Under the pieces are notes generated by a model. That model was given only the letters and a program-made list of their open reading frames with translations, was not told the origin of the DNA and ran no database searches. The position numbers were made by a program, and so were the translations under genes. From Scyliorhinus canicula (lineage: Eukaryota), in the NCBI RefSeq assembly GCF_902713615.1, contig NC_052158.1, forward strand, positions 42,027,729 to 42,091,728: a DNA stretch of 64,000 nt. Direction: 5' to 3'. This document shows positions 7,260-42,965 of this stretch, piece after piece. Position 1 is the first letter of the stretch. Every line of letters begins with the position of its first letter.

Positions 7260-7703
7260 ATCTATGTGCAGTCATCAATATCTTGGATGGGGATTCTGAT
7301 CCAACCCTGTTGAATAGGCAGAAGGTTTGTTCAGTCTGTTAGCTATCATAATCTATTCCAGATCATTGTGAACATTGTTAACCCAACTCTCACAACATAA
7401 CACATGTTCCAGTTCAGTGTTAGTGACCATCTCAGCTCAAACCAAACAGATGAAAGGCTTTTTGATGGAAGCTCACCTCCAGTTGAAACATTAATTCTGT
7501 TTATCTCCACAGATGCGGCCGGACTTGCTGAATATTGACAGCACTTTTTGTTTTATTTCAGTTAAAGGGGTTTGCATCATTATCTGAAATGGACATCAAT
7601 AAGTCATTTTAATTTTAGGACTTCTTATCAGAATTTTGGATACATGTTGTCCGTGATCTCCCACTGAACTTTAACGGATAATAAAATGTGGGTGAAGCTC
7701 CAC

Positions 7704-9890: not shown

Positions 9891-10291
9891 AATATTGGTG
9901 GCAATCAGATTGTTGGTAGACCCAGTGTGTGACATTGATCATAGGATTTGTAGATGAGGCACAACTGCTATAATTGTATTGCCAGGATCAAGGGGTAAAG
10001 TGAATCTGTGCCCTTACCTTTGTCTCAAGGTTTGACCCGAGTTGAAGGATTGGGAAGAGCTGAGACGGACATTTGATCATCAAGCAAAAAAAAGTAAAAT
10101 TACAAACTCAAAACTGTAACACTTTTGAAACCTTGTAGGGTTGTGTCTAATTTCAGTGGTGAAGATTCCTGTCCTGCTCGTCTTAACTTATCCCTCTGTT
10201 GACAGCATCTTCAGTAGAGGGAAAAGGAGAAGTGCAAAAAATAAATTTTGAGAATATTTGTTGGGATTCCACCGTGATCTTTCTTCCAATA

Positions 10292-14350: not shown

Positions 14351-14689
14351 ACATTTTGGAGGTGTTCAGAGATCGGGGTGGGGAAATTGGAAAACATGGT
14401 AAGATTCAACAGGCCAGGCAGGAGTGGCTGGGAGAAACAAGGAAGGATGTAGGGAGATTGTGGAGGGTTGGGGAGTGTGGGGTATGGGGAGTGGGTTGGC
14501 TGGTAGAGAGGAATGACCAGAGTTGTAACATCAGTGGAGTGGTGGTGCTGGATGTTGCAGAGGTCAGGAGTGGGGAGTCAGGAAGTTGATTGGCCAATTA
14601 ACAGAAGGAAAAATCAATTTTGACCGCATTCTTGTTTCCCCATTTAACTGATGTAGGTGGGAATGGCGAGGGGACTGGGAAATGCCGCA

Positions 14690-17600
14690 GACAGAGAGAG
14701 AGAAAGAGGAGGAGAAAGTAAAGGAGAGAGTGGGAGAGACAGAAAGGAGCATAGAGTAAGCGAGAGAGTGAGAGAGGAGCAGAGAATAAAGGAGTAAAGG
14801 AGAGAATGGGGGAGACAGAGAAGAGCAGAGAATAAAGGAGAGAGAGAGAGAGAAGCATTGATTAAATGATAGAGTGGGAGAAAAAGAGGAGCAGAGAGGA
14901 GAGCGTGGGAGAGACAGAAAGGAGCAGAGAGTAAACAAGAGTGTGGGAGAGAGAGACAGAGAGGAGCAGAGAATAAAGGAGAGAGTGGGAGACAGAGGAG
15001 CAGAGAGTAAATGATACTGGGAGAGACAGAGAGAAGAAGAGAGTAGAGAGGGAATAGCAGAGAGTAAAAGGAGAGAGTGGGAGAGACAGAGGGGAGCAGA
15101 GAGTAAATGAGAGAGAGAGACAGAGTGAATGATGGAGATAGAGCCACAGGGAGGAGCAGTGGGTAAAGGAGAAAGCAGGAGAGACAGAGAAGTGCAAAGA
15201 GTGGGAGAGACAGAAAGTTCATAGAATAAACGAGAGTGGGAGAGGGAGAGAGTGACAGAGAGGAGGAGATAATAAAGGGGAAGTGAGGCAGACAGACAGG
15301 ACCAGGGACAAAAGGAGAAAGAAAGAGAGCAACAGATAGTAAAGGAGAGAGTGCAAGAGATAGAGAGAAGCAAGGACTAAAGAGAAAGTGGGAGAGACAG
15401 AGGGGAGCAGCGTCAAAAGGAGAGTGAGAGACAGAGAGGAGCAGATAATAAAGTAGAGAGTGGGAGAGACAGAGGAGCAGAGAGAAAAGGAGAGTGAGAG
15501 AGTGCGAGAGAGACAGACAGACAGAGAGGAGTAGAGAGAGAAGCATAGATTAAGCAATAGTGTTGTAGAGATAGAGGAGCTGAAAGTAGAGTGGCAGAGA
15601 TGGAGAGGAGCAGGGAATGAAAGAGAGCATGGGTGAGACAGAGAGGAGCAGACAGTAAAGGAGAGAGTGGGATTGACACAGAGGAGCAGAGAGTAAAGGA
15701 GAGAGTGCAAGAAATAGGAGCAGAGACTAAAGAGAAAGTGGGAGAGACAGGGGGGAGCAGAGAGAAAGGAAAGAGAAAGTCAGAGAGGAGCAGATAGTAA
15801 AGGAGTGAATGGGAGAGACAGAGAGGAGCAGCAGAGAGTAAAGGAGAGAGTGAGGGAGGAAAGCAGAGAGAGCGAGAGAGACAGAGAGGAGCAGAAAGTA
15901 GAGTAATAGAGATACAGAATAGCAGAGAGTCAGAAGAACCGACCGGAGCGTAGAGTGGGAGAGACAGAAAGGAGCATAGAATGAATGAGAGTGTGAGAGG
16001 GAGGGAGACAGAGAGGAGCACAGGGTGAAGGAGAGAGAGAGTGAGGAGCAATGTGTAAATGAGAGAAATAGAGAGACAGGAGCAGAGAGTAAAGAACAGA
16101 TTGTGAGACGGGAAGGGACAGAGAGTAAATAAGAGAGTGGGAGAGACAGGGAAGAGCAGAGAGCAAAGGAGAGAGAGAGAGAGGGGGGAGAGCAGAGCTT
16201 AAAAGAGAGAGTGGGAGAGATAGGGAGGACCAGAGAGTAAAGGACAGAGGTGAAGAAACGGAAGAACAGAGAGTAAAGAAGAGAGTGGGAGAGACAGAGG
16301 AGAGCAGTGAGTAAAGAAGAGTGGAAGCGAGAGAGAGAGAGAGAGAAGCATAGGTTAAATGATAGAGTGGGTGAGATAGAGGAGCAGAGAGGAAAGGAGA
16401 GTGTGGGAGAGTCAGAGGGCAAGGACAAAAGGAGAGAGAGAGACAAAGAGCAGCAGATAGTAAAGTAGAGAGTGGGATAGACAGAGAGGAGCAAGAAGTA
16501 AAGGAGAGGGCAGGAGAGACAGAGAGGAACAGAGGTGAAGGAGAGAGAGAGGGAGAGAGAGAGAAAAGCATAGACTAAACAATCGAGTGGGAGAGAAAGA
16601 GGAGCAGACAGTAAAGGAGTGAGTGGGAGAGACAGAATGGAGCAGAGAGTAAAGGGAATAAAAGAGACAGAGTGCAGCAGATAGTAAAGGCGTGAAAGAG
16701 ACAGGAAGGAGCAGAGAGTAAAGGAGAGAGTGGGAGAGCCAGAGGAGAGCTGAAAGCAAAGGAGAGCGAGAGGGAGAGACAGAGGAGCAGAGAGTAAAGG
16801 AGAGAGAGAGAGAGAGACAGAGAGGAGCAGACAGTAAAGGAGAGAGAGAGAAAGAGACAGAGAGGAGCAGAGAGTAAAGGGAAAGTGCGAGAGACAGACG
16901 GGAGCAGGAACAAAAGGAGAGAGAGAGAAAGAGAGGAGCAGAGAATAAAGGAGAGAGTGGCAGACAGAGAGGAGGAGAGAGTAAAGGACAGCGAGAGAGA
17001 GACAGGTGTTGCCTTTTTACTCTTTATGTGAATCACAAGCTGTTTCGTATAGTGACCAAATGACCACACAACCAGTATGTTAGCTCAAACACACAGTTTA
17101 TTATAACAAAATATTTGTATCTCTATGCAATAATACATGTGGCTCCGTACGAGACTACACCTAACGACTAAGATGACCTTTACTTAACTTCGAGTGACCA
17201 GCACTGTGCGAGATAAGGCCTTTATCTGGGTCCACGTGGTCTGTTTGGAAGTGGTTGGGTTCGGCTCAGCTGGGCTCATCCTTCAGGAAGTGGTTGTGGG
17301 TCCTTGATCTTGGTTGTTCTGCTGCAGTTGGTCGCGCACAGGCTGGTCCCAAAAGAGACTGATCTCTAGTGTGCAGGGCTTTTTATCCTTCGTCTCTTTC
17401 TCGTTAAGGAGAGAGTGGGAGAGATGGAGAAGAGCAGTGACTAGGAATAGCACAAAGGAATGGAGAGTGAGAAAGGAGCATAGAATAAAAGAGACAGTGG
17501 GAGAAGAAGGGGGAGACAGAGTGGAGCAGAGGGTAAAGGAGAGAGGGAGAGAAAGAGAGAGAGAGGAGCAGAGTGTTAATGAGAAATAGAGAGAAAGAGG

Positions 17601-18330
17601 ATCAGGAGTAAAGGAGAGATTGTGAGAGACAAAGAGGAGCACAGAGTAAAGTAGAAAGTCGGAGAAACAGGAGAAGAGAATACAGGAGGGAGTGGGAGAG
17701 ACAGAGAGGAGCAGGGAGTAAAGGAGAGAGTGGGAGAGACAGGGACAAGCAGAGAGCAAAGGAGAGAGTGGGCATGACGGAGAAGCAGAAAGTAAAGGAG
17801 AGAGAAACAGAGGGGAGCAGAGTTTAAAAGAGAGTGGGAGAGACAGGGAGTATCAGAGATTAAAGGGGAGAGAGAGAGAGAGACAGAAAGGAGCAGAGAG
17901 TAATGGAGAGAGTGGGAGAGAGAGGAGCAGAGAGTAAAGCAGTAGGCAGCACGGTAGCACAACTGGATAGCACTGTGGCTTCACAGCGCGAGGGTCCCAG
18001 GTTCAATTCCCCACTGGGTCACTGTCTGTGTGGAGTCTGTACATCCTCCCCATGTGTGTGTGGGTTTCCGCCGGATGCTCCGGTTTCCTCCCACAGTCCA
18101 AAGACATGCAGGTTAGGCGGATTGGCCAGGCTAAATTGCCATTAGTGCCCAAAAAAGGTTAGGAGGGGTTATTGGGTTACAGGGATAGAGTGGAAGTGAG
18201 GGCTTAAATTGGGTTGGTGCAGACTCGATGGGCCGAATGGCCTCCTTCTGCACTGTATGTTCTATGTTTGTTCTAAAGGAGAGAGTGGGAGGAGTAGAGA
18301 GAGTGTGAGAGACAGAGGAGAGCAGAGCGT
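14690..18330 (+). repeat. Degenerate polypurine (GA-rich) tandem array, unit about 36-40 bp
   Basis: Recurrent GAGAGAGTGGGAGAGACAGAGAGGAGCAGAGAGTAAAG; interrupted by an LTR-like piece (about 17005-17400) and a SINE. Confidence 0.9.
17945..18268 (+). mobile_element. HE1-like SINE
   Basis: GGCAGCACGGTAGCAC head, GGTTCAATTCC B-box-like motif, CR1-like tail ending TATGTTCTATG. Confidence 0.9.
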
Positions 18331-19205: not shown

Positions 19206-19843
19206 GTTACATTAGGAATAGCTCCAAGACAATTCATTCGTTCATTACCGTTCGTATTATAGTTCTTTCGTTATCTTTCAATGTTTCATTTTGTTAATAA
19301 ACTATCTTACTAGTCAAAGAACTAGATGTTCTGTGTGTATCTTTACCATGGCCACAACACAGAACATAACAATGGCCTTTATCACTAATCCTGAAACATC
19401 TTGCCAGATAAATAGTAATATTTGGGGACAGACTAAACCCCAGAAGGTGGTCCATCGTTGGGAAGTGTAATTGCCTATATGCAATTACTTACATGTTTTT
19501 GGATTGCCTTTCACAATTTATGTTTCCTACGTTTATAATGTTGCAATCTTTCCCTCTATGTTTGCCTGAGATTTCATTGCTTGTAAATAAAGTTGCTTCC
19601 ACATAATGAGGTTGGTAATTTATTTTACCAATTGCAGAAGGAAGGTTAATGCCCACAGCTCCCTCTAGTGGCTCGTCGTCCATTTCCATGTGGGCGTCAC
19701 CATTTCTATTGGAGATTGCACAGCTTCATTTTGAGGGGTTGCTTTAAAGCTCAATATTTTCACCACAACACTATTGATATTGTGATCCAGTCCATGTCCC
19801 TACCTGAAGGTAACACAGCCCATTGCCTAAGCATAGAACTAAG

Positions 19844-22800
19844 TGTGGTGGTATGAATAGGAGCGCTGCCATTGGTGCAGAGCACTGGTTTCCCATTGGC
19901 TCTGGCTGGTCATGTGCCTCTCGGCTGATTGGCTGAGACTAGTCATGTGACTGCTCACCAATTGGTGCCTCCAAGGTGGGGTATAAGCACCCAGAGGTCC
20001 CGACGGTCGGCCTTTCACTGTAGTCGACCACCGGGCTAACATCTGGCCGATTAAAGCCTAAGTTTGGACCTTCATCGTGTCTCGGGTCCAATTGATGGTA
20101 CATCAATTTAATCGGCTAGAATTTTGAAATGGAGCTACGCATCAAGCCTGACTGCCTCCACATCAGCCCGCATGCTTCAAACACGCCTGCAACCTTTAAA
20201 CATTGGCTGGCGTGTTTCAACAGTTACCTGACAACTGCAGCCAGCCAGCCCATCAAGGAGCAGAAACTCCACATCCTCCACTCATGCGTGGGCACGGTGG
20301 TATACTCAATGATTGAGGACGAACAGGACTATGACGCGGCTATGGATCTCCTGAGAGGACACTCTCTCTGACCGGTCAACCAATTATATGCACGGCATCT
20401 CCTAGCTACTAGACAACAGTTCTCCGGTGAGTCCCTTGACGTGTTTTACCGGGCCCTCGCGGCTCTGGGGAGAAATTGCGCCTGTCCCCAAGTTTCTGCA
20501 ACAGAGCACATGGAACTTTAAGTCAGAGACGCTTACGTTGCCGGCATGCAATCCTCCTCTATCTGCCAGCGATTACTGGAAAAGGACGCCCTCAGCCTCG
20601 CTGAGGCACGGACCCTCGCAACCTTCGTGGAGGTCGCTGACCTGAACGCCCGCGCATACGCCCCATGCCCCGCGGCATCCCCTTGGGATTCATGGCACGC
20701 ACCCTCTCCGTCCTCCGCCAACCCCGACACCCCCCCCCAGGCCTGCGCTGTGGGACGCCCCGACAAGCTCGCGGGGCCCCGTTGTTATTTTTGCGGCCTA
20801 GCTAAACTCCCCCGCCCGCGCTGCCCGGCCCGCTCCGCTCTGTGCAAGAGCTGCAGGAAGAAGGGCCATTATGCTGTGGTCTGCCAGACCAGGTTGATCG
20901 CTGCTGTTCCACGCAGCGACCGCGGATCGCACCCCCCGGTCCCACCCCAGGGCCCAGCGCGGCACACAGGCCTCTTCATCCCGGCCCCCGCATCCGGCCC
21001 ACAGGCCTCCCTGCACCCGCTCCCGGCTGCCCCGATTGGCCCGCAGGCACCGCTGACCCTGCCCCCAACCACCACGAGGGTCCAGCGGGCGCCCGCCATC
21101 TTGGGCCCCGGACAACTCGTGTGGGCCCTGGGCGCCGCCATCTTGGGGCCCCGGCTCCACGTGCGGGTCCTGGGCGCCGCCATCTTGGGGCCCCGACTCC
21201 ACGTGCGGGTCCTGGGCGCCGCCATCTTGGGCCGACACAGAAGGCCCTGCCAGCGATTACTCTGCCAACGATGACGACCAGGAATTCTCGCCATGGCTTG
21301 CTTCAATCACCCTCGACCAGTCACGACCACGCATGCTCGCCAAGACGACGACGCAGATCCAGCTCAACGGGCATGAGACGAGCTGCCTACTGGACTCCGG
21401 GAGCACGGAAAGTTTCGTCCACCCCGACACGGTAAGACGCTGCGCGCTCCCCGTCCATCCAGTCAAACATAAGATCGAGCTAGCCTCGGGTTCGCACTCC
21501 GTCCAGATCACCGGGTGCTGCATAGCGGACTTCACGGTCCAGGGGAGGGTTTTCAAGAACTACAAACTCCTCATCCTCCCCCGCCTCTGCGCACTGGCAC
21601 TCTTAGGACTGGATTTCCAGTGCAACCTGCAGAGCTTGACCTTCCAATTCGGCGGCCCTATACCCCCCCTCACTGTCTGCAGCCTCGCGTCCCTCAAAGT
21701 GGACCCCCCCTTCCTCGTTTGCGAATCTCACCCCATATTGTAAATCTGTCGCCACTAGGAGCAGACGATACAGCGCCCAGGACCGGACCTTCATCAGGTC
21801 CGAGGTCCAGAGGCTAATAAAGGAAGGAGTCATCGAGGCCAGCAACAGTCCCTGGCGAGCCCACGTGCTGGTAGTTCGAACTGGGGAGAAAAACCGGATG
21901 GTCATTGATTGCAGCCAAACCATCAACCGCGAAACTCCTTAATTTAACCTACAATAAGGATAAGTGCGTGTTTAGCACCGACCATCTAGCCATCCTTGGC
22001 TACGTATTTTGCCTCAATCCCAAATGCATGCGCCCCCTGATGGAACTCCCTCTCCCCAACACTCTCAAATCCTTCAAACGCTGCCTGGGCTTCTTCTCCT
22101 ATTACGCCCAGTGGGTCCCCAACTGCGCCGACAAAGCCCGTCCCCTCATCCAAACTACACCTCCTTTCCCCTGTCGATGGAGGCCTGCCAGGCCTTTACC
22201 CGCATCAAAGCGGAGGCCACGATGCATGCTATCGACGAGTCCCTCCCATTCCAGGTCGAGAGCAACGCGTTGGAAGTTGCTCTGGTGGCCACCCTGAACC
22301 AAGCAGGCAGACCCGTGGCCTTTTTCTCCCGGACCCTCCACGCTTCCGAACTCCGCCATTCCTCGGTGGAAAAGGAGGCACAGACCATAGTTGAAGCTGT
22401 GCGATACTGGAGACACTATCTGGCCGGCAGGAGGTTTACCCTCCTCACAAACCAACGGTCAGTAGCTTTCATGTTTGACAAAGCACAGAGGGACAAGGTC
22501 AAGAACGACAAGATTTTGCGGTGGCGGATCGAGTTGTCCACGTACAACTATGATATCTTGTATCGTCCTGGGAAGCTCAACGAGCCTCCTGATGCCCTGT
22601 CCCGCGGTACCTGCACCAGCGCGCAGATAGACCGCCTTCGCGCCCTCCACGCGGACCTCTGCCATCCAGGGGTAACCCACTTCTACCATTTCATTAAGAC
22701 CCGCAACCTGCCTTATTCTATCGAGGAAGTCAGGGCTGTCACCAGGGACTGCCACATCTGCGCAGAGTGCAAACCGTACTTTTACCGCCCCGACCCAGCG

Positions 22801-24205
22801 CATTTAATCAAGGCGTCCCGCCCCTTCGAACGTCTCAGTATAGACTTCAAGGGTCCCCTCGCCTCCAACAACCGCAACACATATTTTTTGAGTGTGATTG
22901 ACGAGTACTCCCGCTTCCATTTCGCTATCCCCTGCCCCAATATGATCACGACAACCGTCATCAAGGCCCTCCTGTCCATTTTCTCCCTGTTTGGTTACCC
23001 CGCATACATCCACAGCGACCGGGGGTCCTCCTTTATGAGTGACGAGCTGCGTCAATTCCTGCTCAGCGGGGGCATCGCCTCTAGCAGGACGACCAGTTAT
23101 AACCCTCGGGGTAACGGGCAGGTCGAGCGGGAGAATGGCACCATCTGGCCCTACGGTCCAGAGATCTCCCAGTTTCCCGATGGCAAGAGGTCATCCCCGA
23201 CGCCCTCCATTCAATCCGGTCTCTCCTCTGTACCACCACTAACCAAACACCTCATGAACGTCTTCTTGTTTTCCCTAGGAAGTCGTCCTCAGGATCCCCG
23301 CTCCCGACCTGGCTGGCCCCCTGGCCCATCTTGCTCCGGAAGCATGTGCGGGTGTACAAGTCCGACCCGTTGGTTGAACGAGACCAGTTACTCCACGCCA
23401 ACCTGCAGTATGCGTACGTGGAGTACCCCGACGGTCGGCAGGATACGGTCTCGCTTCGGGACCTGGCACCCGCCGGCGTGCGGCCTCCCCCCCTACATCG
23501 CCACCCCCCCTCCTTATCCGATTCCCCCCAGCGCCCCCACGAACTAGCGCACAGGGCCCCCCTTCCCCGATCACAGCGTCTCGACCACCGGCCTGGGGTA
23601 GGAAAAACAGATCTACGACCGACGCTCCCGGAGTCCAGGACGATCACCGGCCCGACGTCACCGGCTCCACTGCAGCGGTCCGCCAGAACACCACGGGAAC
23701 CCGTCAGGCTGATCGAGTCCATCTGATGGCACCATTGGACTTTGTTGGACTCTATTGTACCATTTCTTTTGCATTCAACTATGCTTAATTCTGTTCACAT
23801 TTGCCACGAGCCAGTGGGCAGCCACCGTTTATCTCGATTTTCTCTACTCATACCACCAGTCCTCGGCCCACCCCCATCTCTTTTCCCCTTACCCTCCCCG
23901 GCTTCTTTCTCCACAAGGGGTGAATGTGGTGGTATGAATAGGAGTGCTGCCATTGGTGCAGAGCACTGGTTTCCCATTGGCTCTGGCTGGTCATGTGCCT
24001 CTCGGCTGATTGGCTGAGACTAGTCATGTGACTGCTCACCACTTGGTCGAGAGGCAAGTAGACCCCACCTCCAAGGCGGGGTATAAGTATCCAGAGGTCC
24101 CGGCGGTCGGCCTTTCACTGTAGTCGACCACCGGGCTAACATCTAGCCGATTAAAGCCTAAGTTTGAACCTTCATCGTGTCTCGCGTCCAATTGATGGTA
24201 CATCA
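19844..24205 (+). mobile_element. Ty3/Gypsy LTR retrotransposon (family 1), defective
   Basis: LTRs 19844-20105 and 23925-24205 (TG...CA), 5-bp TSD CTAAG, gag with a CCHC knuckle, protease LLDSGS, RT with core deleted, RNase H, integrase DFKG/HSDRG/NGQVE, PPT AAGGGGTGAA. Confidence 0.95.
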
Positions 24206-24407
24206 CTAAGGTTAGCGACACTTCTGGAAACACTAACTTTTAAAGTAACATTGGGCCTGTATCAAAAGTTAAGTTTGATTCTCGCTGAGAACCTATTCTG
24301 TTCATTCAATTAGTACCTGCAAATTAAGCCAATTTGTTGATTTACTATTGGCCTTGTCTCAACAGAATAATCAATCGGTCTGCATCCAGAAGATAGCAGA
24401 AATGTCC

Positions 24408-24570
24408 ATGAAATGAAAATGAAATGAAAATCGCTTAATGTCACGAGTAGGCTTCAAATGAAGTTACTGTCAAAAGCCCCTAGTCGCCACATTACAGCGC
24501 CTGTTCGGGGAGGCTGGTACGGGAATTGAACTGTGCTGCTGGACTGCCTTGGTCTGCTTTCAAAGCTAGT
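24408..24570 (-). mobile_element. Short tRNA-derived SINE (further copies 25132-25290 on - and 38098-38202 on +)
   Basis: Shared GAATGTGGCGACTAGGGGCTTTTCACAGTAACTTCAT...AAGCGATTTTCATTTC tail and GGTTCGATTCCCGTACC box. Confidence 0.75.
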
Positions 24571-25559
24571 GTGTGGCCTTGCATGGCCTGGATCGCCATG
24601 TGATACCAAGTTTCATTATTACAGCTTTGGATCCCACTAATAGATGGCTAGACATTGGGTAGTAAAGCAAAACCACATATAACACTGATCTCACCTACAA
24701 TGTTCCCTAATCAACAACTGATTAGCATCAAAATGGGTTCAGTTAACATAGAGATAGTCTATTAAGACAATTAACGTGCCTGTTAAGGCCACCTTCCACC
24801 CCACTTGCCCCCACATTCCTCCATTCATCTTTGTGCTCCCACCTACATATCCTCCTCCAACCAACATCTCTATCCCTTGCAGTGACTGAAAGATGTACAG
24901 AGAAAAGTGGCAGCTTTCTGGCATTAGCATTTGTGCTTAACAGCGCCACAGCAGGGTCTCTCAGGCAAGGCCATTTGATTCCAGGCCTTGGGTATCTCAG
25001 GCGTGGACATAGTGCAGTGAGTGTAACTATTCACTTGAATATGCAAATATGGATCCCATCCATAGAGGGTGGGATCCAGATCGCAAAACCTCACATGATC
25101 TAGTAAGATCATGCAAGGCATAACGAGCTACATGAAATGAAATGAAAATCGCTTATTGTCACGAGTAGGCTTCCATGAAGTTACTGTGACAAGCCCCTAG
25201 TCGCCACATTCCGGCGCCTGTCCGGGGAGGCTGGTACGGGAATCGAACCGTGCTGCTGGCCTGCTTGGTCTGCCAGCGACTTTTAAGCCATACATCTCGC
25301 GAGAGGCATTTCACGAGATTTACCAGCCTCAGTGGGTCCCAAGAAACACCCTGCTCAACATGCCCAAAAGGAGACTGTGTTGTGTTTCCATTAACTCACT
25401 CCAGAGCTAAGGTTTCAGATCCAAAGAGTCCTTCTATAGAACTGCTGAGTTCATCCAGCATAGAATTGTAGAATCCCTACAGTGCAGGAGGCCATTTGTC
25501 TCATCAAGTCTGCACCGACTGTCTGAAAGAGCACCCTACTTAGGCCCTCTCCCTCACCC

Positions 25560-26280
25560 TGTCGTGTTAAGCACAGTAAGATAACATGGGCTGCAACTGG
25601 ATGCAGCTTTACCTGAGAGATACTCCACACCTTGAAGTTAGTTCAATATGATTTATTGAACCTGTCACAGAGCTGAATCCTCTGTGAGTTTGACTCTCTG
25701 CTAGCCTAGTGTGATTAATCTGTCTGACTGAACCAGACTAGCACTTAGCCACATGATGTAAGAGTTATATGATATGTTCACACTGCAGATGTCATCAGTG
25801 GAAAGAGGAGGAGTGTGAGTGCCTCATGCCTTTTATAGTGGGAAACCATCCCCATTGGGGCCTCACGGTAGCATGGTGGTTAGCATCAATGCTTCACAGC
25901 TCCAGGGTCCCAGGTTCTATTCTCGGCTGGGTCACTGTCTGTGTGGAGTCTGCACGTCCTCCCCATGGTGTGCATGAGTTTCCTCCGGGTGCTCCGGTTT
26001 CCTCCCACAGTCCAAAGATGTGCGGGTTAGGTGGATTGGCCATGCTAAATTGCCCGTAGTGTAAGGTTAATGGGGGGATTGTTGGGTTATGGGTATACGG
26101 GTTACGTGGGTTTAAGTAGGGTGATCATTGCTCGGCACAACATCGAGGGGCCGAAGGGCCTGTTCTGTGCTGTACTGTTCTATGTTAAGTGTTCTGCCTG
26201 CTGATTGGTTATGTCCTGTTCTCTGTATTCATTAGCTGCCTGTTTGTATCTCATAATGTGCAAGTCTGCATATCATGACA
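25560..26280 (-). mobile_element. Solo LTR related to family 3, with an HE1-like SINE (25858-26187) inside
   Basis: TGT...ACA ends, 5-bp TSD CACCC at 25555-25559 and 26281-26285; right end CATATCATGACA resembles the family 3 end GATATTATGACA; inserted in a SINE/CR1-type tail. Confidence 0.75.
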
Positions 26281-26530
26281 CACCCTATCTCCATAACCTC
26301 ACCTAGCCTGCACATCATTTGGACACAAAAACAATTTTTTAGCATGGCCAATCCGTCTTACCTCCCTGGAACCACACCTAAGCACGACTATCCACTTATA
26401 ACCATCTGCCAATGATCGAATGTGCCCCCACTTATATTGGAGTGCCTTGTCACATGACCACTGTCTTGCGACCGTATGGGGTGTCTGTACCACCACCTGC
26501 TGGTTGGAGGTCGCACCACCAGTCATCTCT

Positions 26531-29500
26531 GGGCAGCGCGGTAGCACAAATGGATAGCACTGTGGCTTCACAGCGCCAGGGTACCAGGTTCGATACCACT
26601 CTGGGTCACTGTCTGTGCAGAGTGATGCACGATCAATAACTACTGAAATGAGGATGTAGTCCAAATTGAAGGTGTTAATCAACAAGATGTTTCCCCAGCA
26701 GCTCGAGTACAGAAAGAAGGCTTGCTGCTGGGAAACACGGGTTCTTATACCCCGCCTCACTGGGCGGAGCTACCTTACGTTCCGACCAATGAAATGCAAA
26801 CACTTGGGCCAATGAGCAGCGAGCTTTTTCCACCAATGGTAGCTCACACTCCCAGGTACCGTAGTACCTCTAGTCATACTACCACATTCACCCCTTGTTG
26901 AGAAAGGAACCGGGGGAGGGGGGAGAAGACTGTTCGGGCGTCCAGCTATGACTGGTAGTTCGGTGCGGGTGGGATAATATACTGGTAGTATGACTAGTGA
27001 TATGGGACTATACCCCTCTCAAACGGCAGATGCCCACTGGCCCGTAACTATGTACAGAGTCAGGAATTGTGTTATCAACATGGCAACTATTTACAGAGAC
27101 AGGAAAAAAAATCCATTAAGAGTTCACATCGACTCGATGAGACGATCGGTGGCCTTGGACGTCCTCTGCGACCGACGGAGCTTCGGCGGAGATCTTGATG
27201 GAGATGCGGGCATCCATGACTCCGGGAGCGATGATCCGGTCCTTGTGGAGGTTTCAACACCACTAGACGGCACTGGTGAAGGCCAGGCCGGGGGTGGGGG
27301 GGGGGGGGGGGGCGTCTAGTTCTACAGGCTGCGCAGGTGAGGGGGTTGGCGGGCCAGGGAGCGGGGGGGAGAGTGCCAGCAGGGTGCAGTTGCGGTTGGG
27401 GGGGTCCCGCCATAGCCTGTGGGGGGGTGGGTGGGGCTGGTGCCGGGGGCGATGGCGGGGATCCGGCGGGTCCAGGTCCTGTAGAGAGACCATGTCTTGT
27501 CGGCCGTCGGGATACTCCACATACGCATATTGCGGGTTAGCGTGGAGCAGCTGGACCCTCTGCGCCCACACGTGCTTCCGGAGCAGGATGGGCCCGGGGG
27601 CTGCCAGCCAGGTCGGGAGCGGGCTCCCTAAGGAAGACTTCCTGGGGAAGACAAGAAGGCGCTCGTGAGGAGTTTGATTAGTAGAAGTGCAGAGTAGAGA
27701 CCGGACGGAGTGGAGGGTGTCTGGGAGGACCTTCTGCCAGCGGGAGACTGGGAGATTTCTGGACCGTAGGGCCAGTAGAACGGTTTTGCAGACTGTACCG
27801 TTCTCTCTCTTGACCTGTCTGTTACCCCGGGGGTTATAACTGGTCGTCCTGCTTGTCGTCCTGCTTGAGGCAATGCCCTTCCTTCACTCATGAAGGAGGA
27901 CCCCCTATCACTGTGTATGTAGGCGGGGAATCCGAACAGGGAGAAGATGGTGTGTAGGGCTTTGATAATGGTGGTTGTGGTCATGTCGGGGCAGGGGATG
28001 GCGAACGGGAAATGAGAATCACGTTGAGGAAGTACGTGTTGCGGTTGGTAGAGGGGAGGGAACCTTTGAAGTCCATGCTGAGGCATTCAAAGGGACGAGA
28101 AGCCTTTATCAGATGTGCTTTTCCGGGGCGGTAGAAGTGCGGCTTGCACTCCGCGCAGATGTGGCAGTTTCTGGTGACTGTCCTGACCTCCTCGATGGAG
28201 TAGGGCAGGTTGCGGGTCTTCACGAAATGGAAGAAGCGGGTGACCCCCGGGTGGCAGAGATCCTCGTGGAGGGCTCGGAGGCGGTCCACTTGTGCGTTGG
28301 CACAGGTGCCGCGGGACAGGGCATAGGGAGGCTCGTTTAGCTTCCCAGGACGATACAAGATGTCATAGTTGTGGGTGGATAACTCGATCCTCCACCGCAA
28401 GATCTTGTTGTTTTTTATCTTGCCCCGCTGTGCATTGTCGAACATGAAGGCCACCGACCGTTGGTCTGTGAGGAGGGTAAACCTCCTGCTGGCCAGGTAA
28501 TGCCTCCAATGCTGCACAGCTTCTACTATGGCCTGTGCTTCCTTCTCGACCGAGGAATGGCGGATTTCAGAAGCATGGAGGATGCGCGAGAAGAAGGCCA
28601 CGGGCCAGCCCGCTTGGTTGAGGGTGGCTGCCAGAGCTACGTCAGAAGCGTCACTCTCGACCTGGAAGGGGAGGGACTCGTCGATGGCGCACATCGTGGC
28701 CTTTGCAATATCCGCTTTGATGCGGCTGAAGGCCTGGCAGGCCTCCGTCGACAGGGGGAAAGTGGTCGTTTGTATGAGGGGACGGGCTTTGTCGGCGTAG
28801 TTGGGGACCCACTGAGCGTAATAAGAAAAAAACATGAGGCAGCGCTTCAGGGCCTTGGGGCAGTGAGGGAGGGGGGAGCTCCACCAGGAGGCGCATGCGT
28901 TCCGGGTTGGGGCCTATCACTCCATTTCGCACTACGTAGCCGAGGATGGCTAGGTGGTCGGTGCTGAACACGCATTTTTCTTTGTTATAAGTCAAATTCA
29001 GGAGTTTTGCGGTTTGGAGGAATTTGCGGAGGTTGGCGTCATGGTCCTGCTGATCGTGGCCGCAGATGGTGACATTATCGAGATACGGGAAAGTTGCCTG
29101 TAAACCGTATCAGTCGACCATTCGGTCCATCTCAAGTTGGAAGACCGAGACCCCGTTTGTGACACCGAAGGGAACCCTTAAAAAGTGGTAGAGCGCCCAT
29201 CCGCCTCAAACACAGTGTACTTGCGATCGCTCGCGCGGATGGGGAGCTGGTGGTAGGCGGACTTCAGGTCTACTGTGGAGAAGACCTTGTACTGCGCGAT
29301 CCTGTTGACCAGGTCAGATATACGGGGGAGAGGATACGCGTCCAGCTGCGTAAACCTGTTGATGGTCTGACTGTAGTCTATGACCATCCTATCCTTCTGC
29401 CCTGTCTTTACCACCAGAACTTGTGCTTGCCAGGGACTGTTACTAGCCTCGATGACCCCTTCCTTCAGAAGCCGTTGGACCTCGGACCTGATGAAGACCC

Positions 29501-31692
29501 GGTCCTGGGCATTGTATCATCTGCTCCTGGTGGCGACGGGTTTGCAATCCAGGGTGAGGTTTTCAAACAAGAACGGGGGATCGACTTTGAGGGTTGCGAG
29601 GCTGCAGACAGTGAGGGGAGGCATAGGGCCGCCGAATGTAAATGTTAGGCTTTGGAGGTTACACTGGAAGTCTAACCCCAGGAGTGTAGCCACGCAGAGG
29701 TGGGGGAGGACGTAGAGCCTGTAATCTTTAAACTCCCTCCCCTGGACCGTGAGGTCCGCTAAACAATACCCCTTGATCTCAACCGAATGGGAGCCAGAGG
29801 CCAGGGAGATTTTTTGCTTAACGGGATGGACAGGAAGAGAGCAGCATCTTCCAGTGACAGGGTGTATGAAACTCTCCATGCTCCCGGAATCCAGCAGGCA
29901 GAACGTTTCGTGCCCGTTGAGCAGGATCTTCGTCGTTGCCATAGATAGGGTGCGGGGTCGAGACTGGTCCAAGGTGACTGATGCGAGTCGTGGCAGAAGA
30001 TCGGAGTCGTCATTGACCGGTTTGGAGTCACCCGCGCCGGGGACCTCGGAGCCGATCCAAGATGGCGGCGCCCACTGTTCGCACATGGCGGGGGATGGGC
30101 AAAATGACGGCGCCCGTCCCCCACACGTGGCGTCGGGAAAACAAGATGGTAGCGCCCAGAGGCCGCAAGTGGCATTGGGGGATGGGGACGGAGAAGATCG
30201 CGGGCAGCATGGGGCCCTCGGAGAGAGACGGGGTGGCATCCCACAGTCGCTGCCCGGGACCGCAGCAACCGCCTTGGCCTGGCAAACCGACAGAAAGTGC
30301 CCCTTTTTACCGCAGCCCTTGCACGTTGCCGATCGAGCTGGGCAACGCTGTCGGGGGTGTTTTGCCTGTCCACAAAAATTGCAACGGGGCCCAGTGGGGT
30401 TTCCAGGGCGTCTTGCAGCGCAGGCCTGAGGCGATTCCGAGTCCGTAGGGGAAGGGGAAGCTGAATTCCACGCTGCCCAGGGGGCTGCCGCGTGGTCGGG
30501 GGCATATGAACGGGCGTTTCTGTACGCAACATCTAGAGAGTTCACGAGGGCCTGTGCCTCCGTGAGGCTCAAAGTTTCCTTCTCTAACAGTCTCTGGCGG
30601 ATTTGTGGGGACTGCATACCCGCAACAAAGGCGTCTCGGATTAACAGTTGAGTGTGCTCATTAGCAGAAACTTGCGGGCCGCTGCAGTTCCTCCCCAGTA
30701 CAAGGAGCGCACGCTAAAAATCGTCTAATGACTCACCAGGGATCTGCTGCCTCGTAGCCAGAAAGTGCCGAGCGTAGACGTGATTCACGGATCGGATGAA
30801 GTGGCCTTTAAGCAGTTCCACGGTGGAGTCGTAGTTGGTTGTGTCCTCGATGAGCGTGTAGAAGGCGGTGCCGAAGCACGAGTGGAGGATGTGCAGCTTC
30901 TGCTCCCTCGTCGGTACGTTTTCCGCCATGCTGAGATAGCTATTAAAACAAGCTAGCCAATGCCTGAACGTAGCTGCTGCGTTAGCTGCGTGGGGGTTGA
31001 GTCGTAGACACTCCGGCTTGATGCGGAGCTCCATCCTTTAAAATCTTGTTGATTAAATTGATGCGCGATCGATAACTACTGAAACGAGGATGTAGTCCGA
31101 ATTGAAGGCTTTAATCAACAAGATGTTTCCCCAGCAGCTCAAGTACAGAGAAAAAAGGCTGGCTGCTGGGAAACACGGGTTCTCATACCTCGCCTCACTG
31201 GGCGGAGCTACCTTACGTTCCGACTAATGAAATGCAAACACTTGGGCCAATGAGCAGCGAGCTTTCTCCACCAATGGTAGCTCACACTCCCAGGTACCGT
31301 AGTACCTCTAGTCATACTACCACATTCACCCCTTGTTGAGAAGGGAACGGGGGGTGGGGGAGACTGCTTGGGCGTCCAGCCATGACTGGTAGTCCGGTGC
31401 AGGTGGGATAATATACTGGTAGTATGACTAGTGATATGGGATTAGCTGTGTGGGGGCCCAGAGTCTGCACGTTCTCCCCGTGTCTGCGTGGGTTTCCTCC
31501 GGGTGATCTGGTTTCCTCCCACAGTGCAAAGACGTGCAGGTTAGGTGGATTGCCCATGATAAATTGCCCTTAATGACCAAAAAGGTTCAGAGGGGACATT
31601 GGGTTATGGGGATAGGGTGGAAGGGAGGGCTTAAGTGGGTTGGTGCAGAATCGTCAGGCCGAATGGCCTCTTTCTGCACTGTATGTTCTATG
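26531..31692 (+). mobile_element. HE1-like SINE split by the Gypsy insertion (26531-26622 and 31459-31692)
   Basis: Head ends CTGTGCAGAG and resumes CAGAGTCTGCACGTTCTCCCC. Confidence 0.85.
26623..31458 (-). mobile_element. Ty3/Gypsy LTR retrotransposon (family 2, related to family 1), frameshifted
   Basis: LTRs 26623-26886 and 31059-31324, TSD CAGAG (26618-26622, 31459-31463), gag MELRIKPECL, protease, RT, RNase H and integrase on the minus strand; extra PPT/3'UTR copy at 31325-31441. Confidence 0.93.
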
Positions 31693-32695: not shown

Positions 32696-32769
32696 GTAAG
32701 TGACCGGGTTCACCCCCCTCCCTCCCCCGGGTCTGGAGCGGAGTCAGAGTGAGACCATCGGGAGGCCGA

Positions 32770-35700
32770 GGCCTGGGGCTGGAGTGAATGACTGAACGGG
32801 GTCCGGAGTGACTGACTGACCGGGGGCCGGAGTGACTGACTGACCGGGAGGCCGAGGCCTGGGGCTGGAGTGACTGACTGACCGGGGCTGGAGTGACTGA
32901 CTGACCGGGGGCTGGAGTGACTGACTGACCGGGGTCCGGAGTGACTGACTGACCGGGGTCCGGAGTGACTGACTGACCAGGGGCTGGAGTGACTGACTGA
33001 CCGGGGGCCGGAGTGACTGACTGACCGGGGTCCGGAGTGACTGACTGACCGGGCCGGGGTCCGGAGTGACTGACTGACCGGGGGCCGGAGTGACTGACTG
33101 ACCGGGGCTGGAGTGACTGACTGACTGACCGGGGGCCGGAGTGACTGACTGACCGGGGGCCGGAGTGACTGACTGACCGGGGTCCGGAGTGACTGACTGA
33201 CCGGGGACCGGAGTGACTGACTGACCAGGGGCTGGAGTGACTGACTGACCGGGGGCCGGAGTGACTGACTGACCGGGGTCCGGAGTGACTGACTGACCGG
33301 GCCGGGGTCCGGAGTGACTGACTGACCGGGGGCCGGAGTGACTGACTGACCGGGGGCCGGAGTGACTGACTGACCGGGGCTGGAGTGACTGACTGACTGA
33401 CCGGGGGCCGGAGTGACTGACTGACCGGGGGCCGGAGTGACTGACTGACCGGGGGCCGGAGTGACTGACTGACCGGGGCCGGAGTGACTGACTGACCGGG
33501 GGCCGGAGTGACTGACTGACCGGGGGCCGGAGTGACTGACTGACCGGGGGCCGGAGTGACTGACTGACCGGGGGCCGGAGTGACTGACTGACCGGGGGCC
33601 GGAGTGACTGACTGACCGGGGTCCGGAGTGACTGACTGATCGGGGTCTGGAGTGACTGACTGACCGGGGGCCGGAGTGACTGACTGACCGGGGGCTGGAG
33701 TGACTGACTGACCGGGCCGGGGTCCGGAGTGACTGACTGACCGGGGGCTGGAGTGACTGACTGACCGGGGGCCGGAGTGACTGACTGACCGGGGGCCGGA
33801 GTGACTGACTGACCGGGGGCCGGAGTGACTGACCGGGGGCCGGAGTGACTGACTGACCGGGGGCCGGAGTGACTGACTGACCGGGGGCCGGAGTGACTGA
33901 CTGACCGGGAGCCGGAGTGACTGACTGACCGGGGGCCGGAGTGACTGACTGACCGGGGGCCGGAGTGACTGACTGACCGGGGGCCGGATTGACTGTCTGA
34001 CCGGGGGCCGGAGTGACTGACTGACCGGGGTCCGGAGTGACTGACTGACCGGGGTCTGGAGTGACTGACTGACCGGGCCGGGGTCCGGAGTGACTGACTG
34101 ACCGGGGGCTGGAGTGACTGACTGACCGGGGGCCGGAGTGACTGACTGACCGGGGTCCGGAGTGACTGACTGACCGGGCCGGGGTCCGGAGTGACTGACT
34201 GACCGGGGGCCGGAGTGACTGACTGACCGGGGGCCGGAGTGACTGACTGACCGGGCTGGAGTGACTGACTGACTGACCGGGGGCCGGAGTGACTGACTGA
34301 CCGGGGGCCGGAGTGACTGACTGACCGGGGGCCGGAGTGACTGACTGACCGGGGCCGAGTGACGACGGCCCGGGGCCGGAGTGGACTGACTGACCGGGGG
34401 CCGGAGTGACTGACTGACCGGGGGCCGGAGTGACTGACTGACCGGGGGCCGAGTGACTGACTGACCGGGGGCCGGAGTGACTGACTGACCGGGGGCCGGA
34501 GTGACTGACTGACCGGGGGCCGGAGTGACTGACTACCGGGGGCCGGAGTGATCTGACTGACCGTGGGCCGGAGTGACTGACTGACCGGGGGCCGGAGTGA
34601 CTGACTGACCGGGGGCCGGAGTGACTGACTGACCGGGGCCGGAGTGACTGACTGACCGGGGGCCGGAGTGACTGACTGACCGGAGGGCCGGAGTGATGAC
34701 TGACCGGGGGCCGGAGTGACTGACTGACCGGGGGCCGGAGTGACTGACGGGGGCCGGAGTGACTGACTGACCGGGGGCCGGAGTGACTGACTGACCGGGG
34801 CCGGAGTGACTGACTGACCGGGGGCCGGAGTGACTGACTGACCGGGAGCCGGAGTGACTGACTGACCGGGGGCCGGAGTGACTGACTGACCGGGGGCCGG
34901 AGTGACTGACTGACCGGGGGCCGGATTGACTGACTGACCGGGGGCCGGAGTGACTGACTGACCGGGGTCCGGAGTGACTGACTGACCGGGGTCTGGAGTG
35001 ACTGACTGACCGGGCCGGGGTCCGGAGTGACTGACTGACCGGGGGCTGGAGTGACTGACTGACCGGGGGCCGGAGTGACTGACTGACCGGGGTCCGGAGT
35101 GACTGACTGACCGGGGTCCGGAGTGACTGACTGACCGGGGGCCGGAGTGACTGACTGACCGGGGGCCGGAGTGACTGACTGACCGGGGCTGGAGTGACTG
35201 ACTGACTGGCCGGGGGCCGGAGTGACTGACTGACCGGGGGCCGGAGTGACTGACTGACCGGGGGCCGGAGTGACTGACTGACCGGGGGCCGGAGTGACTG
35301 ACTGACCGGGGGCCGGAGTGACTGACTGACCGGGGGCCGGAGTGACTGACTGACCGGGGGCCGGAGTGACTGACTGACCGGGGGCCGGAGTGACTGACTG
35401 ACCGGGGGCCGGAGTGACTGACTGACCGGGGGCCGGAGTGACTGACTGACCGGGGGCCGGAGTGACTGACTGACCGGGGGCCGGAGTGACTGACTGACCG
35501 GGGGCCGAGTGACGGACTGACCGCGGGCCGGAGTGACGGACTGACCGGGGGCCGGAGTGACTGACTGACCGGGGGCCGGAGTGACTGACTGACCGGGGTC
35601 CGGAGTGACTGACTGACCGGGCCGGGGTCCCGGAGTGACTGACTGACCGGGGGCTGGAGTGACTGACTGACTGGGGCCGGAGTGACTGACTGACCGGGGT

Positions 35701-37000
35701 CCGGAGTGACTGACTGACCGGGCCGGGGTCCGGAGTGACTGACCGGGGTCCGGAGTGACTGACTGACCGGGGGCCGGAGTGACTGACTGACCGGGGCTGG
35801 AGTGACTGACTGACTGACCGGGGGCTGGAGTGACTGACTGACCGGGGGCCGGAGTGCCTGACTGACCGGGGGCCGGAGTGACTGACTGACCGGGGGGCCG
35901 GAGTGACTGACTGACCGGGGGCCGGAGTGACTGACTGACCGGGGTCCTGGAGTGACTGACTGATCGGGGTCTGGAGTGACTGACTGACCGGTGGGCCGTA
36001 TGACTGACTGACCGGGGGCTGGGAGTGACTGACTGACCGGCCGGGGTCCGGAGTGACGTGACTGACCGGGGGCTGGAGTGACTGACTGACCGGGGCCGGA
36101 GTGACTGACTGACCGGGGGGCCGGGGGAGTGACTGACTGACCGGGGGCCGGAGTGACTGACCTGGGGGCCGGAGTGACTGACTGACCGGGGGCCGGAGTG
36201 ACTGACTGACCGGGGGCCGGAGTGACTGACTGACCGGGCGCCGGAGTGACTGACTGACCGGGGGCCGGAGTGACTGACTGACCGGGGCCGGAGTGACTGA
36301 CTGACCGGGGGCCGGATTGACTGACTGACCGGGGGCCGGAGTGACTGACTGACCGGGGTCCGGAGTGACTGACTGACCGGGGTCTGGAGTGACTGACTGA
36401 CCGGGCCGGGGTCCGGAGTGACTGACTGACCGGGGGCTGGAGTGACTGACTGACCGGGGGCCGGAGTGACTGACTGACCGGGGTCCGGAGTGACTGACTG
36501 ACCGGGCCGGGGTCCGGGGTGACTGACTGACCGGGGGCCGGAGTGACTGACTGACCGGGGGCCGGAGTGACTGACTGACCGGGGCTGGAGTGACTGACTG
36601 ACTGACCGGGGGCCGGAGTGACTGACTGACCGGGGGCCGGAGTGACTGACTGACCGGGGGCCGGAGTGACTGACTGACCGGGGGCCGGAGTGACTGACTG
36701 ACCGGGGGCCGGAGTGACTGACTGACCGGGGTCCGGAGTGACTGACTGACCGGGGGCCGGAGTGACTGACTGACCGGGGGCCGGAGTGACTGACTGACCG
36801 GGGGCCGGAGTGACTGACTGACCGGGGGCCGGAGTGACTGACTGACCGGGGGCCGGAGTGACTGACTGACTGACCGGGGGCCGGAGTGACTGACTGACTG
36901 ACCGGGGGACAGAGTGACTGACTGGCTGAGCGGGGGACGGAGTGACTGACTGGCTGACCGGGGGACGGAGTGACTCGCTGACCGGGGTCTGGGTCCGATT
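32770..37000. repeat. GC/CpG-rich 24-bp minisatellite, about 4.2 kb
   Basis: Unit CCGGAGTGACTGACTGACCGGGGG with 20-, 28- and 30-bp variants. Confidence 0.97.
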
Positions 37001-42409: not shown

Positions 42410-42965
42410 GTGACTCACTGACCGGGGTCCGGAGTGACTCACTGACCGGGGTCCGGAGTGACTCACTGACCGGGGTCCGGAGTGACTCACTGACCGGGGT
42501 CCGGAGTGACTCACTGACCGGGGTCCGGAGTGACTCACTGACCGGGGTCCGGAGTGACTCACTGACCGGGGTCCGGAGTGACTCACTGAACGGGGTCCGG
42601 AGTGACTCACTGATCGGGGTCCGGAGTGACTCACTGACTGGGGGATGGAGTGACTCACTGGGGGATGGAGTGACTCACTGACTGGGGGATGGAGTGACTC
42701 ACTGACTGGGGGATGAAGTGACTCACTGACTGGGGGATGGAGTGACTCACTGACTGGGGATGGAGTGACTCCCTGATCGGGGTCCGGAGTGACTCCCTGA
42801 TCGGGGTCCGGAGTGACTCCCTGATCGTGGTCCGGAGTGACTCCCTGATCGGGGTCCGGAGTGACTCCCTGATCGGGGTCCGGAGTGACTCCCTGATCGG
42901 GGTCCGGAGTGACTCACTGATCGGGGTCCCGAGTGACTGACTGACCGGGGGGTGGAGTCACTCGC
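42410..42965. repeat. Right-hand continuation of the 24-bp minisatellite (variant units)
   Basis: Units GTGACTCACTGACCGGGGTCCGGA, then GTGACTCACTGACTGGGGGATGGA, then GTGACTCCCTGATCGGGGTCCGGA. Confidence 0.95.

What the first reader, a model, noticed from the sequence alone, without database searches (positions are those of the whole stretch)
23844..23941. Second covarying stem pairs the U3 terminus with the 3' UTR and loops out the PPT
Seen: family 1 CTACTCATACCACCA (23844-23858) pairs with TGGTGGTATGAATAG (23927-23941) at 14 of 15 positions. Family 2 has a perfect 15-bp pair between 26870-26884 and 26983-26997 (CTAGTCATACTACCA / TGGTAGTATGACTAG). The arm begins at LTR base 3 in both, with loops of 68 and 98 nt containing the PPT. 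This mirrors the 5' stem. Inference: an RNA structure that positions RNase H or plus-strand priming, or aids strand transfer or packaging.
Basis: partly seen in the sequence, partly recalled or inferred. Interest (0 to 1): 0.7.

Follow-up and report, generated by a model that had tools for sequence, protein, structure and literature searches.

The report
Paired tail hairpin in fish retrotransposons
One lineage of jumping genes in what is likely a shark carries two pairs of matching sequences near its RNA's tail that have changed together across copies and likely fold into a hairpin, which would likely help the RNA be cut at the right end; similar hairpins are already described in plant jumping genes.

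Summary
The inverted repeat is real in both Ty3/Gypsy elements (14/15 and 15/15 bp; no shuffle of 400 matched as well) and in 99 of 100 genomic copies picked by their PPT alone. The kept core is 11 bp (U3 +3 to +13). It is the inner helix of a larger hairpin: a second, roughly 15-bp helix joins the UTR to the second CCAAT box of U3. Four pairs change on both sides, two through G.U intermediates on the RNA strand, while the sequence between the arms diverges. It is not clade-wide: sister families with the same PPT (at least 6,511 copies) and 26 distant relatives lack it, yet sister copies start precisely at TG, and the PPT is often predicted paired rather than exposed. This weakens the primer-positioning idea. 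Best guess (0.35): a clamp that brings a U-rich/UGUA segment of the UTR back within reach of the weak 3' poly(A) signal. PPT-flanking inverted repeats are known in plant Sireviruses and other copia elements; this is a gypsy variant with different geometry. Function untested.

The parts
23844..23858 (+). Element 1, inner helix H1, UTR arm (kept core 23848-23858)
23927..23941 (+). Element 1, inner helix H1, U3 arm, LTR bases +3..+17 (kept core 23927-23937)
23808..23823 (+).
23968..23983 (+). Element 1, outer helix H2, U3 partner covering the second CCAAT box (read as ATTGG)
23859..23914 (+). Element 1, C-rich variable loop and pyrimidine tract before the PPT
   Evidence: sequence; loop 43-146 nt among 56 copies
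23915..23924 (+). Element 1, polypurine tract
   Evidence: sequence; same tract in lineages A and B
23727..23802 (+). Element 1, U-rich 3' UTR segment after the pol stop codon, with one UGUA (23756-23759); proposed upstream enhancer
   Evidence: role inferred
24150..24155 (+). Element 1, ATTAAA poly(A) signal in the 3' LTR
   Evidence: A-tailed read ends about 18 nt past this hexamer on a related copy
23925..24205 (+). Element 1, 3' LTR
   Evidence: 5-bp target duplication at 19839-19843 and 24206-24210
19844..20105 (+). Element 1, 5' LTR
20042..20120 (+). Element 1, 5' stem (20042-20055 with 20107-20120) covering the poly(A) hexamer, in place of a tRNA primer site
20130..23726 (+). Element 1, decayed gag-pol (protease, RNase H, integrase domains in pieces; stops, frameshifts, part of RT deleted)
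26983..26997 (-). Element 2, inner helix H1, UTR arm
26870..26884 (-). Element 2, inner helix H1, U3 arm (+3..+17)
27029..27043 (-). Element 2, outer helix H2, UTR arm
26806..26820 (-). Element 2, outer helix H2, U3 partner
26887..26896 (-). Element 2, polypurine tract
26623..26886 (-). Element 2, 3' LTR
31059..31324 (-). Element 2, 5' LTR
31325..31458 (-). Element 2, left-end extension inside the target duplication: 18 nt of unknown origin plus about 116 nt of 3' UTR with H1 arm and PPT
31040..31127 (-). Element 2, 5' stem (31110-31127 with 31040-31057)

Best explanation
Two pairs of complementary arms flank the PPT and change together across copies of one Ty3/Gypsy lineage; they likely fold in the full-length RNA into a hairpin that likely acts as a clamp, which would bring a U-rich, UGUA-bearing stretch of the 3' UTR close enough to the weak AUUAAA signal to favour cleavage at the 3' LTR. 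Shown: the arms, their conservation against a diverged interior, four two-sided changes, the one-lineage distribution, use of the AUUAAA signal. Inferred: folding in vivo on the RNA strand (about 0.85); the clamp role in 3' end formation (about 0.35). The hairpin can form only at the 3' end, because UTR and U3 meet only there; at the 5' LTR the same hexamer lies inside the clade-wide 5' stem and would be hidden.
For: Arms 0.93 and 0.91 identical among 16 subfamily representatives against 0.48 for the spacer, 0.59 for the loop, 0.60 for the flank, 0.86 for pol. 97.8% of 722 cells paired, covariation 0.173 against 0.110 in shuffles (0 of 500). On a pol tree H1 +7 goes U-A, U.G, C-G and H2 column 2 goes G-C, G.U, A-U, G-C in clade order; H1 +8 C-G to U-A occurs in three subfamilies. 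H2 column 7 is G.U in 192 of 204 copies, which removes CCAAT from the UTR copy. Loop (43-146 nt) and spacer (21-70 nt) vary freely, as for a clamp and unlike a protein-read fold. UGUA per copy: 0.10 in U3 of lineage A (0.69 expected), 1.24 in the 90 nt before the hairpin (0.67 expected), 2.11 in U3 of stemless lineage B (1.16 expected). Nearest UTR UGUA to signal: 389 nt linear, 187 nt with the hairpin closed (43 copies), against 170 nt (quartiles 130-208) in B. Hexamer is ATTAAA in 60 of 69 A copies, none AATAAA. The 5' stem covers the hexamer across the clade. Precedent: spacing roles proposed for HIV-1 TAR and shown for the HTLV-1 RxRE (PMC2645353, PMC6714889; passages).
Against: One evolutionary origin, so the UGUA correlation has n = 1 and was found after the fact. 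Only 4 of 25 pairs change on both sides (176 of 500 shuffles reach that) and independent pairs are too few for a sign test (1-4 per column). The reverse word TACA is also rare in A's U3 (0.06). UGUA is not enriched before the hairpin in one A group (15 of 26 copies; 1.04 against 0.85). Families C1 and C2 have UGUA in both U3 and UTR. In RNA reads most molecules that cover U3 do not continue into the PPT and UTR (depth 44-67 against 3 or less; loose ends at LTR base 1), so the signal is used without the hairpin, at least in host-driven transcripts. 187 nt is far for a UGUA enhancer by the distances I recall (40-100 nt; not from a call). The G.U excess (6 clade-level G.U states to 1 A.C in the cores, my count) is not significant against a background that already leans 524 to 392 toward G.U-making changes (that heuristic counts nested branches more than once).
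Confidence: 0.35

Rival explanations
1. The hairpin is a 3'-end mark read by a protein (Gag or an export factor) for export, packaging, dimer formation or stability of the full-length RNA.
For: Forms only in full-length 3' ends; kept in 99 of 100 PPT-selected copies; arm sequences vary less than pairing alone requires (2 of 11 and 2 of 14 pairs change on both sides); both UTRs are needed for Ty3 RNA localisation and packaging (PMC11381356, passages).
Against: Interior loops differ widely in length and sequence; low variation is explained by the U3 side's other duties (integrase end, CCAAT box; inference); stemless lineage B is the more abundant (6,511 against 2,600 exact PPT matches under different patterns); no Rfam match.
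Confidence: 0.25
2. The stem helps RNase H cut the plus-strand primer correctly, by exposing the PPT or by pausing reverse transcriptase near it (the first reader's main idea, and the role proposed for the Sirevirus inverted repeat).
For: H1 closes at U3 +3 in 207 of 210 copies; lineage B keeps a short C-rich motif able to pair with the PPT (score 8.0 against 6.9; 12 of 39 beat all 8 shuffles), so structure at this junction may be old; same proposal in PMC2829016 (passages).
Against: Lineage B and 26 distant relatives lack H1 and H2 yet B copies have left ends at TG with target duplications (9 of 15 scorable, against 32 of 42 in A; most failures are end-calling or decay); the PPT is predicted paired, not exposed; an RNA-RNA stem must be opened before the PPT is in an RNA-DNA hybrid (established mechanism).
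Confidence: 0.2
3. A neutral relic: an inverted copy of the U3 start was templated into the UTR once and is kept similar by occasional template switching, with no function.
For: Arm order is that of an inverted duplication of U3 +2..+65; single origin; the same C-to-T / G-to-A change recurs in identical context at +8; few independent events.
Against: The middle of the would-be duplication has diverged (0.48) while both ends are kept; a G.U is held in 192 of 204 copies and mismatches at +14 persist across clades, which copying would erase; intermediates sit as whole clades in tree order.
Confidence: 0.12
4. The pairing acts on minus-strand DNA during reverse transcription, or the arms are DNA binding sites in two orientations.
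For: H1 is nearly all Watson-Crick and folds on either strand; the +14 C.A state (46 of 210) would be G.T on the minus strand.
Against: Fixed wobbles in H2 are G.U only on the plus strand; element 2's minus strand folds no better than shuffles as DNA (z -0.09, against -2.64 for plus RNA); the UTR copy lacks CCAAT.
Confidence: 0.08

Closest known systems
Inverted repeat around the terminal PPT of Sireviruses and about half of classic Ty1/copia elements (Bousios et al. 2010, PMC2829016)
   Same: [quoted passage not shown]
   Different: Ty3/Gypsy in an animal. [quoted passage not shown] Absent from sister lineages.
PPT-containing 3' terminal stem-loops noted for Sire and HIV-1 (Benachenhou et al. 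2013, PMC3601003, which calls for a systematic search)
   Same: [quoted passage not shown]
   Different: No gypsy case is given in the passages read; the HIV source (Watts 2009) was not held, so that comparison is second-hand.
HIV-1 3' TAR and HTLV-1 RxRE as spacers for 3' end processing (PMC2645353, PMC6714889)
   Same: A fold near the 3' end that would shorten the distance between processing signals; poly(A) signal masked by a stem at the 5' LTR.
   Different: Those folds lie in R or U3-R; this one spans UTR, PPT and U3 and would deliver an enhancer from outside the LTR. No sequence likeness; role here untested.
Tf1/sushi self-priming structure (described in PMC10085805)
   Same: The element's separate 5' stem replaces a tRNA primer site with a duplex to LTR sequence.
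   Different: Concerns the 5' stem, not this one; these elements have no chromodomain by Pfam, and the 5' arm lies about 60 nt past the TATA box and covers the poly(A) hexamer.

Membership tests
Ty3/Gypsy LTR retrotransposon | Two LTRs TG...CA with target duplication; protease, RT, RNase H, integrase in that order; PPT before the 3' LTR | tested here: met
Sirevirus/copia PPT inverted repeat | [quoted passage not shown] | tested here: met
   definition
Sirevirus/copia PPT inverted repeat | Left arm borders the PPT; PPT at the 5' side of a short loop; right arm about 18-28 nt inside the LTR | tested here: not met
   right arm at +3, loop 43-146 nt, PPT at the 3' side
Sirevirus/copia PPT inverted repeat | Host element is Ty1/copia | tested here: not met
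   integrase follows RNase H
Sirevirus/copia PPT inverted repeat | PPT left single-stranded in the loop | tested here: inconclusive
   predicted paired with probability 0.90, no different from shuffled UTR; unpaired in one centroid; prediction only
3' processing spacer (TAR/RxRE-like role) | Functional poly(A) signal downstream | tested here: met
   A-tailed ends in 22 and 12 reads of run X19 just past the hexamer
3' processing spacer (TAR/RxRE-like role) | Closing the fold restores a typical enhancer-to-signal spacing | tested here: inconclusive
   389 to 187 nt, against 170 in lineage B; one origin, post hoc
3' processing spacer (TAR/RxRE-like role) | Breaking the fold lowers use of the site; restoring pairs rescues it | not testable with these tools
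   needs a reporter assay
Known RNA export elements and other Rfam families | Match to a curated model | tested here: not met
   two sub-threshold chance hits elsewhere in 19500-31600, none here
Tf1/sushi chromoviruses | Chromodomain at the integrase end | tested here: not met
   none in 5 full-length relatives and 2 window frames at E 0.1
Tf1/sushi chromoviruses | No tRNA primer site; duplex between LTR sequence and the primer-site position | tested here: met
Named metazoan gypsy clades (Cigr-1, MolGy and others) | Grouping with reference elements in an RT tree | not tested
   no reference sequences were held; names seen only in PMC6238403

The most novel reading that the evidence does not exclude
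This clade sets both of its poly(A) sites by RNA structure: a clade-wide 5' stem hides the signal (and may self-prime reverse transcription), and one lineage, after trading a UGUA-rich U3 for a GC-rich CCAAT promoter, evolved a hairpin across the PPT that delivers a processing enhancer from outside the LTR. Sister lineages with and without it form a natural experiment.
Probability: 0.25. Interest if true: 0.65.

Novelty: new variant of a known kind. Interest (0 to 1): 0.4.

Why it matters
Inverted repeats around the PPT were described in plant copia elements in 2010 and guessed to guide RNase H; a 2013 paper asked for a search in other LTR elements. Here is a gypsy case with covariation on a tree and, more usefully, close relatives with the same PPT that lack the stem, which argues that such stems need not be for priming. 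If the clamp reading holds, it shows how an LTR can move its 3'-end enhancer outside the repeat. The specialist surprise is moderate: the kind of structure is known and the function is untested.

Tried and rejected
Clade-wide stem: not above shuffles in 39 lineage-B copies, 26 metagenome relatives or the window's tRNA-primed element. Stepwise precursors in sister families C1 (12 copies) and C2 (14): visible by eye and in folds and in the right tree order, but not above shuffles by ungapped helix score, so only suggestive. Pairing of arms or U3 with the 5' leader (cyclisation switch): no better than shuffled leader in 40 copies. tRNA-like primer site at U3 +3: considered because the arm ends in CCA; no test run, dropped since no tRNA sequence was at hand. 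Left-end extensions as a sign of mis-priming at the stem: only element 2 shows one; none among 213 junctions was followed by a true primer-site sequence (3 loose hits were flanking DNA). Splice acceptor at the arm's CAG: no joints in four RNA runs, thin coverage. Editing in the stem: cannot be told from copy differences. Run search listed no RNA holder on record. Viral contigs gave no relative. Earlier findings: none. Tree sign tests had too few independent pairs. Literature searches found no description of this stem in a gypsy element; Repbase and subscription journals were not searched. Additional file 2 of PMC2829016 was not opened and may show copia arms of other geometry; Watts 2009 was not held.

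Full report
Setting. The window is from a 4.2-Gb genome. The nearest protein relatives of element 1 are from a catshark and rays (75-81% identity), then cnidarians, a crustacean and many unnamed contigs, so the host is likely a cartilaginous fish (inference). Both elements are decayed Ty3/Gypsy retrotransposons of about 4.4 kb with 5-bp target duplications; full-length relatives show no chromodomain. The clade name was not determined.

The observation. It is exactly as written and beyond chance: 0 of 400 shuffles reached the observed match for either element. But the two 'families' are subfamilies of one lineage (here A), one side of a branch with full support, nested among families (B) that share the PPT (151 rows kept of the projected set, rows with under 500 of 720 columns left out; 70 of 83 rows).

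Copies. A pattern for the two UTR arms has 2,175 exact matches, control 0. To avoid selecting for the arms I took the first 100 of 2,600 matches to the lineage-A PPT: 99 carry the H1 arm; of 104 junctions examined (these plus 4 arm-selected) 101 carry the H2 arm. In 103 of them the core U3 +3..+13 is Watson-Crick in 1,079 of 1,133 cells; +14 is paired in only 36. So the kept helix is 11 bp, with subfamily-specific extensions.

A second helix. RNAalifold on 29 hand-picked copies spanning the subfamilies finds H1, an outer helix H2 of 14 pairs joining the UTR to the second CCAAT box of U3, and four C-G pairs between the C-run and the PPT. Single folds of both window elements agree (z -3.10 and -2.64). 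On that alignment 97.8% of cells pair and the covariation score beats all 500 shuffles, but only 4 of 25 pairs change on both sides, a number 176 of 500 shuffles reach. The tool's shuffle ignores relatedness, so I mapped states on a tree made from pol alone (141 rows). H1 +7 runs U-A (basal), U.G (one clade of 5), C-G (derived). H2 column 2 runs G-C, G.U, A-U and back to G-C. H1 +8 changes C-G to U-A in three subfamilies (9 of 210 copies; 5 U.G, 5 C.A). H2 column 12 goes C-G to A-U by way of a C-U mismatch. These are about seven events, too few for a sign test. The stronger argument is differential conservation: arms 0.93 and 0.91, spacer 0.48, loop 0.59, flank 0.60, pol 0.86 among 16 representatives, some of them arm-selected.

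Which strand. H2 column 7 is G.U in 192 of 204 copies; on the minus strand it would be a mismatch, and it removes CCAAT from the UTR copy, against a DNA-site reading. Clade-level wobbles in the cores are 6 G.U to 1 A.C by my count, suggestive only, as background changes lean the same way. Element 2's minus strand folds as DNA no better than shuffles; element 1's does somewhat (z -0.09 and -2.21).

Distribution. Lineage B has 6,511 exact PPT matches. In 39 B copies the best UTR-U3 helix is at shuffle level, as in 26 distinct metagenome junctions (taken from 80 loci, those where a PPT could be placed) and the window's tRNA-primed element; in A it beats all 8 shuffles in 55 and 62 of 69. B keeps a short C-rich motif that can pair with the PPT itself (12 of 39 beat all shuffles; pairing probability 0.88 against 0.70). 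Two families that branch just outside A (C1, C2) show shorter arms by eye that do not beat shuffles. By contrast the 5' stem is found in 47 of 49 A and 22 of 24 B copies where the 5' junction was found, and in 8 of 11 metagenome elements, with free two-sided change, nearly always covering the poly(A) hexamer. The 3' stem therefore does not mirror it.

Priming. Left ends at TG with a target duplication were scored in 32 of 42 A and 9 of 15 B elements; 35 of 77 A and 25 of 40 B could not be scored, and most listed failures still begin TGT. The PPT G-run is predicted paired in A (0.90; shuffled UTR 0.88). In Ty3, SHAPE also places the PPT in a paired region (PMC11381356, passages). So H1 and H2 are not needed for a precise plus-strand start.

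Mechanism. Closing helices are fixed while the interior is free, which fits a clamp. What lies 5' of the clamp is a U-rich segment (T 0.39) with UGUA in 82 of 100 copies; U3 of lineage A has almost none, whereas stemless B carries UGUA in U3. Closing the hairpin cuts the UGUA-to-signal distance from 389 to 187 nt, near B's 170. That UGUA is the CFIm site is recalled, not from a call. RNA reads laid on a related copy show A-tailed ends just past the ATTAAA in run X19 and a fall in depth there from 65 to 22 (strand of that library inferred). The same reads count against the model: most U3 reads do not continue into the UTR, so the site works without the hairpin in other contexts. Precedents for spacing by structure are HIV-1 TAR (suggested) and the HTLV-1 RxRE (PMC2645353, PMC6714889; passages). 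I put the clamp at 0.35, export or packaging 0.25, RNase H or RT pausing 0.2, neutral relic 0.12, DNA-level 0.08.

What is known. Bousios et al. 2010 (PMC2829016; passages) describe an inverted repeat around the terminal PPT in Sireviruses and almost half of classic copia elements and propose that it exposes the PPT to RNase H. Benachenhou et al. 2013 (PMC3601003; passages) add HIV, draw the U5-IR analogy and ask for a systematic search. Also seen in passages: PMC10085805, PMC6238403. Other papers were seen only as search listings. No whole text or supplement was read.

Verdict. Real, under selection as RNA with fair confidence, one lineage only, a new variant of a known kind; function open. 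Interest 0.4.

Noticed in passing
window 20042-20120 (+), 31127-31040 (-); L171-L290; L093, L094, L097, L099, L101, L102, L120, L131: The 5' stem is clade-wide, starts 1-2 nt after the LTR, varies freely on both sides and nearly always covers the poly(A) hexamer; no tRNA primer site, no chromodomain. A likely self-priming and signal-hiding stem outside Tf1/sushi, better supported than the 3' stem.
   Followed up: partly
window 31458-31325 (-): Element 2's 5' LTR is preceded, inside the target duplication, by 18 nt of unknown origin and about 116 nt of its own 3' UTR and PPT; it starts about 10 nt before the H1 arm. No second case among 213 junctions.
   Followed up: partly
L251-L290, 40 nt before the LTR: Lineage B keeps a CACCCCC motif that can pair with the PPT, followed by an RGACH word (m6A-like; label recalled) in 37 of 40 copies; lineage A has GGACT near the stop codon in 27 of 67.
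   Followed up: partly
L361-L390 and family-2 copies, UTR and U3 +25..+33: A palindromic GGTACC word lies in both UTR and U3 of families C1 and C2 and in U3 of basal A, lost in derived A; could form a middle helix or a dimer contact.
   Followed up: no
window 37036-42408 (-): A third, unrelated gypsy element with a TGG primer site, interrupted by SINE-like inserts and sitting in a 24-nt tandem array (32700-37000, 42410-42960); no 3' stem.
   Followed up: partly
L065/L066, L241/L242, L375-L377: Tandem or nested element junctions 1.4-4.3 kb apart.
   Followed up: no
L237:4620 and 4898; window 23925 and 24205: RNA reads with host sequence on either side of the LTR are common in both orientations, so these LTRs lie inside many host transcripts and some end there.
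   Followed up: no
window 20094-20108: A short inverted repeat across the U5 end (U5-IR-like hairpin) lies inside the loop of the 5' stem; seen by eye only.
   Followed up: no
window 7600-9900 and 14600-17950: A 68-69-nt tandem array and a long purine-rich low-complexity tract.
   Followed up: no
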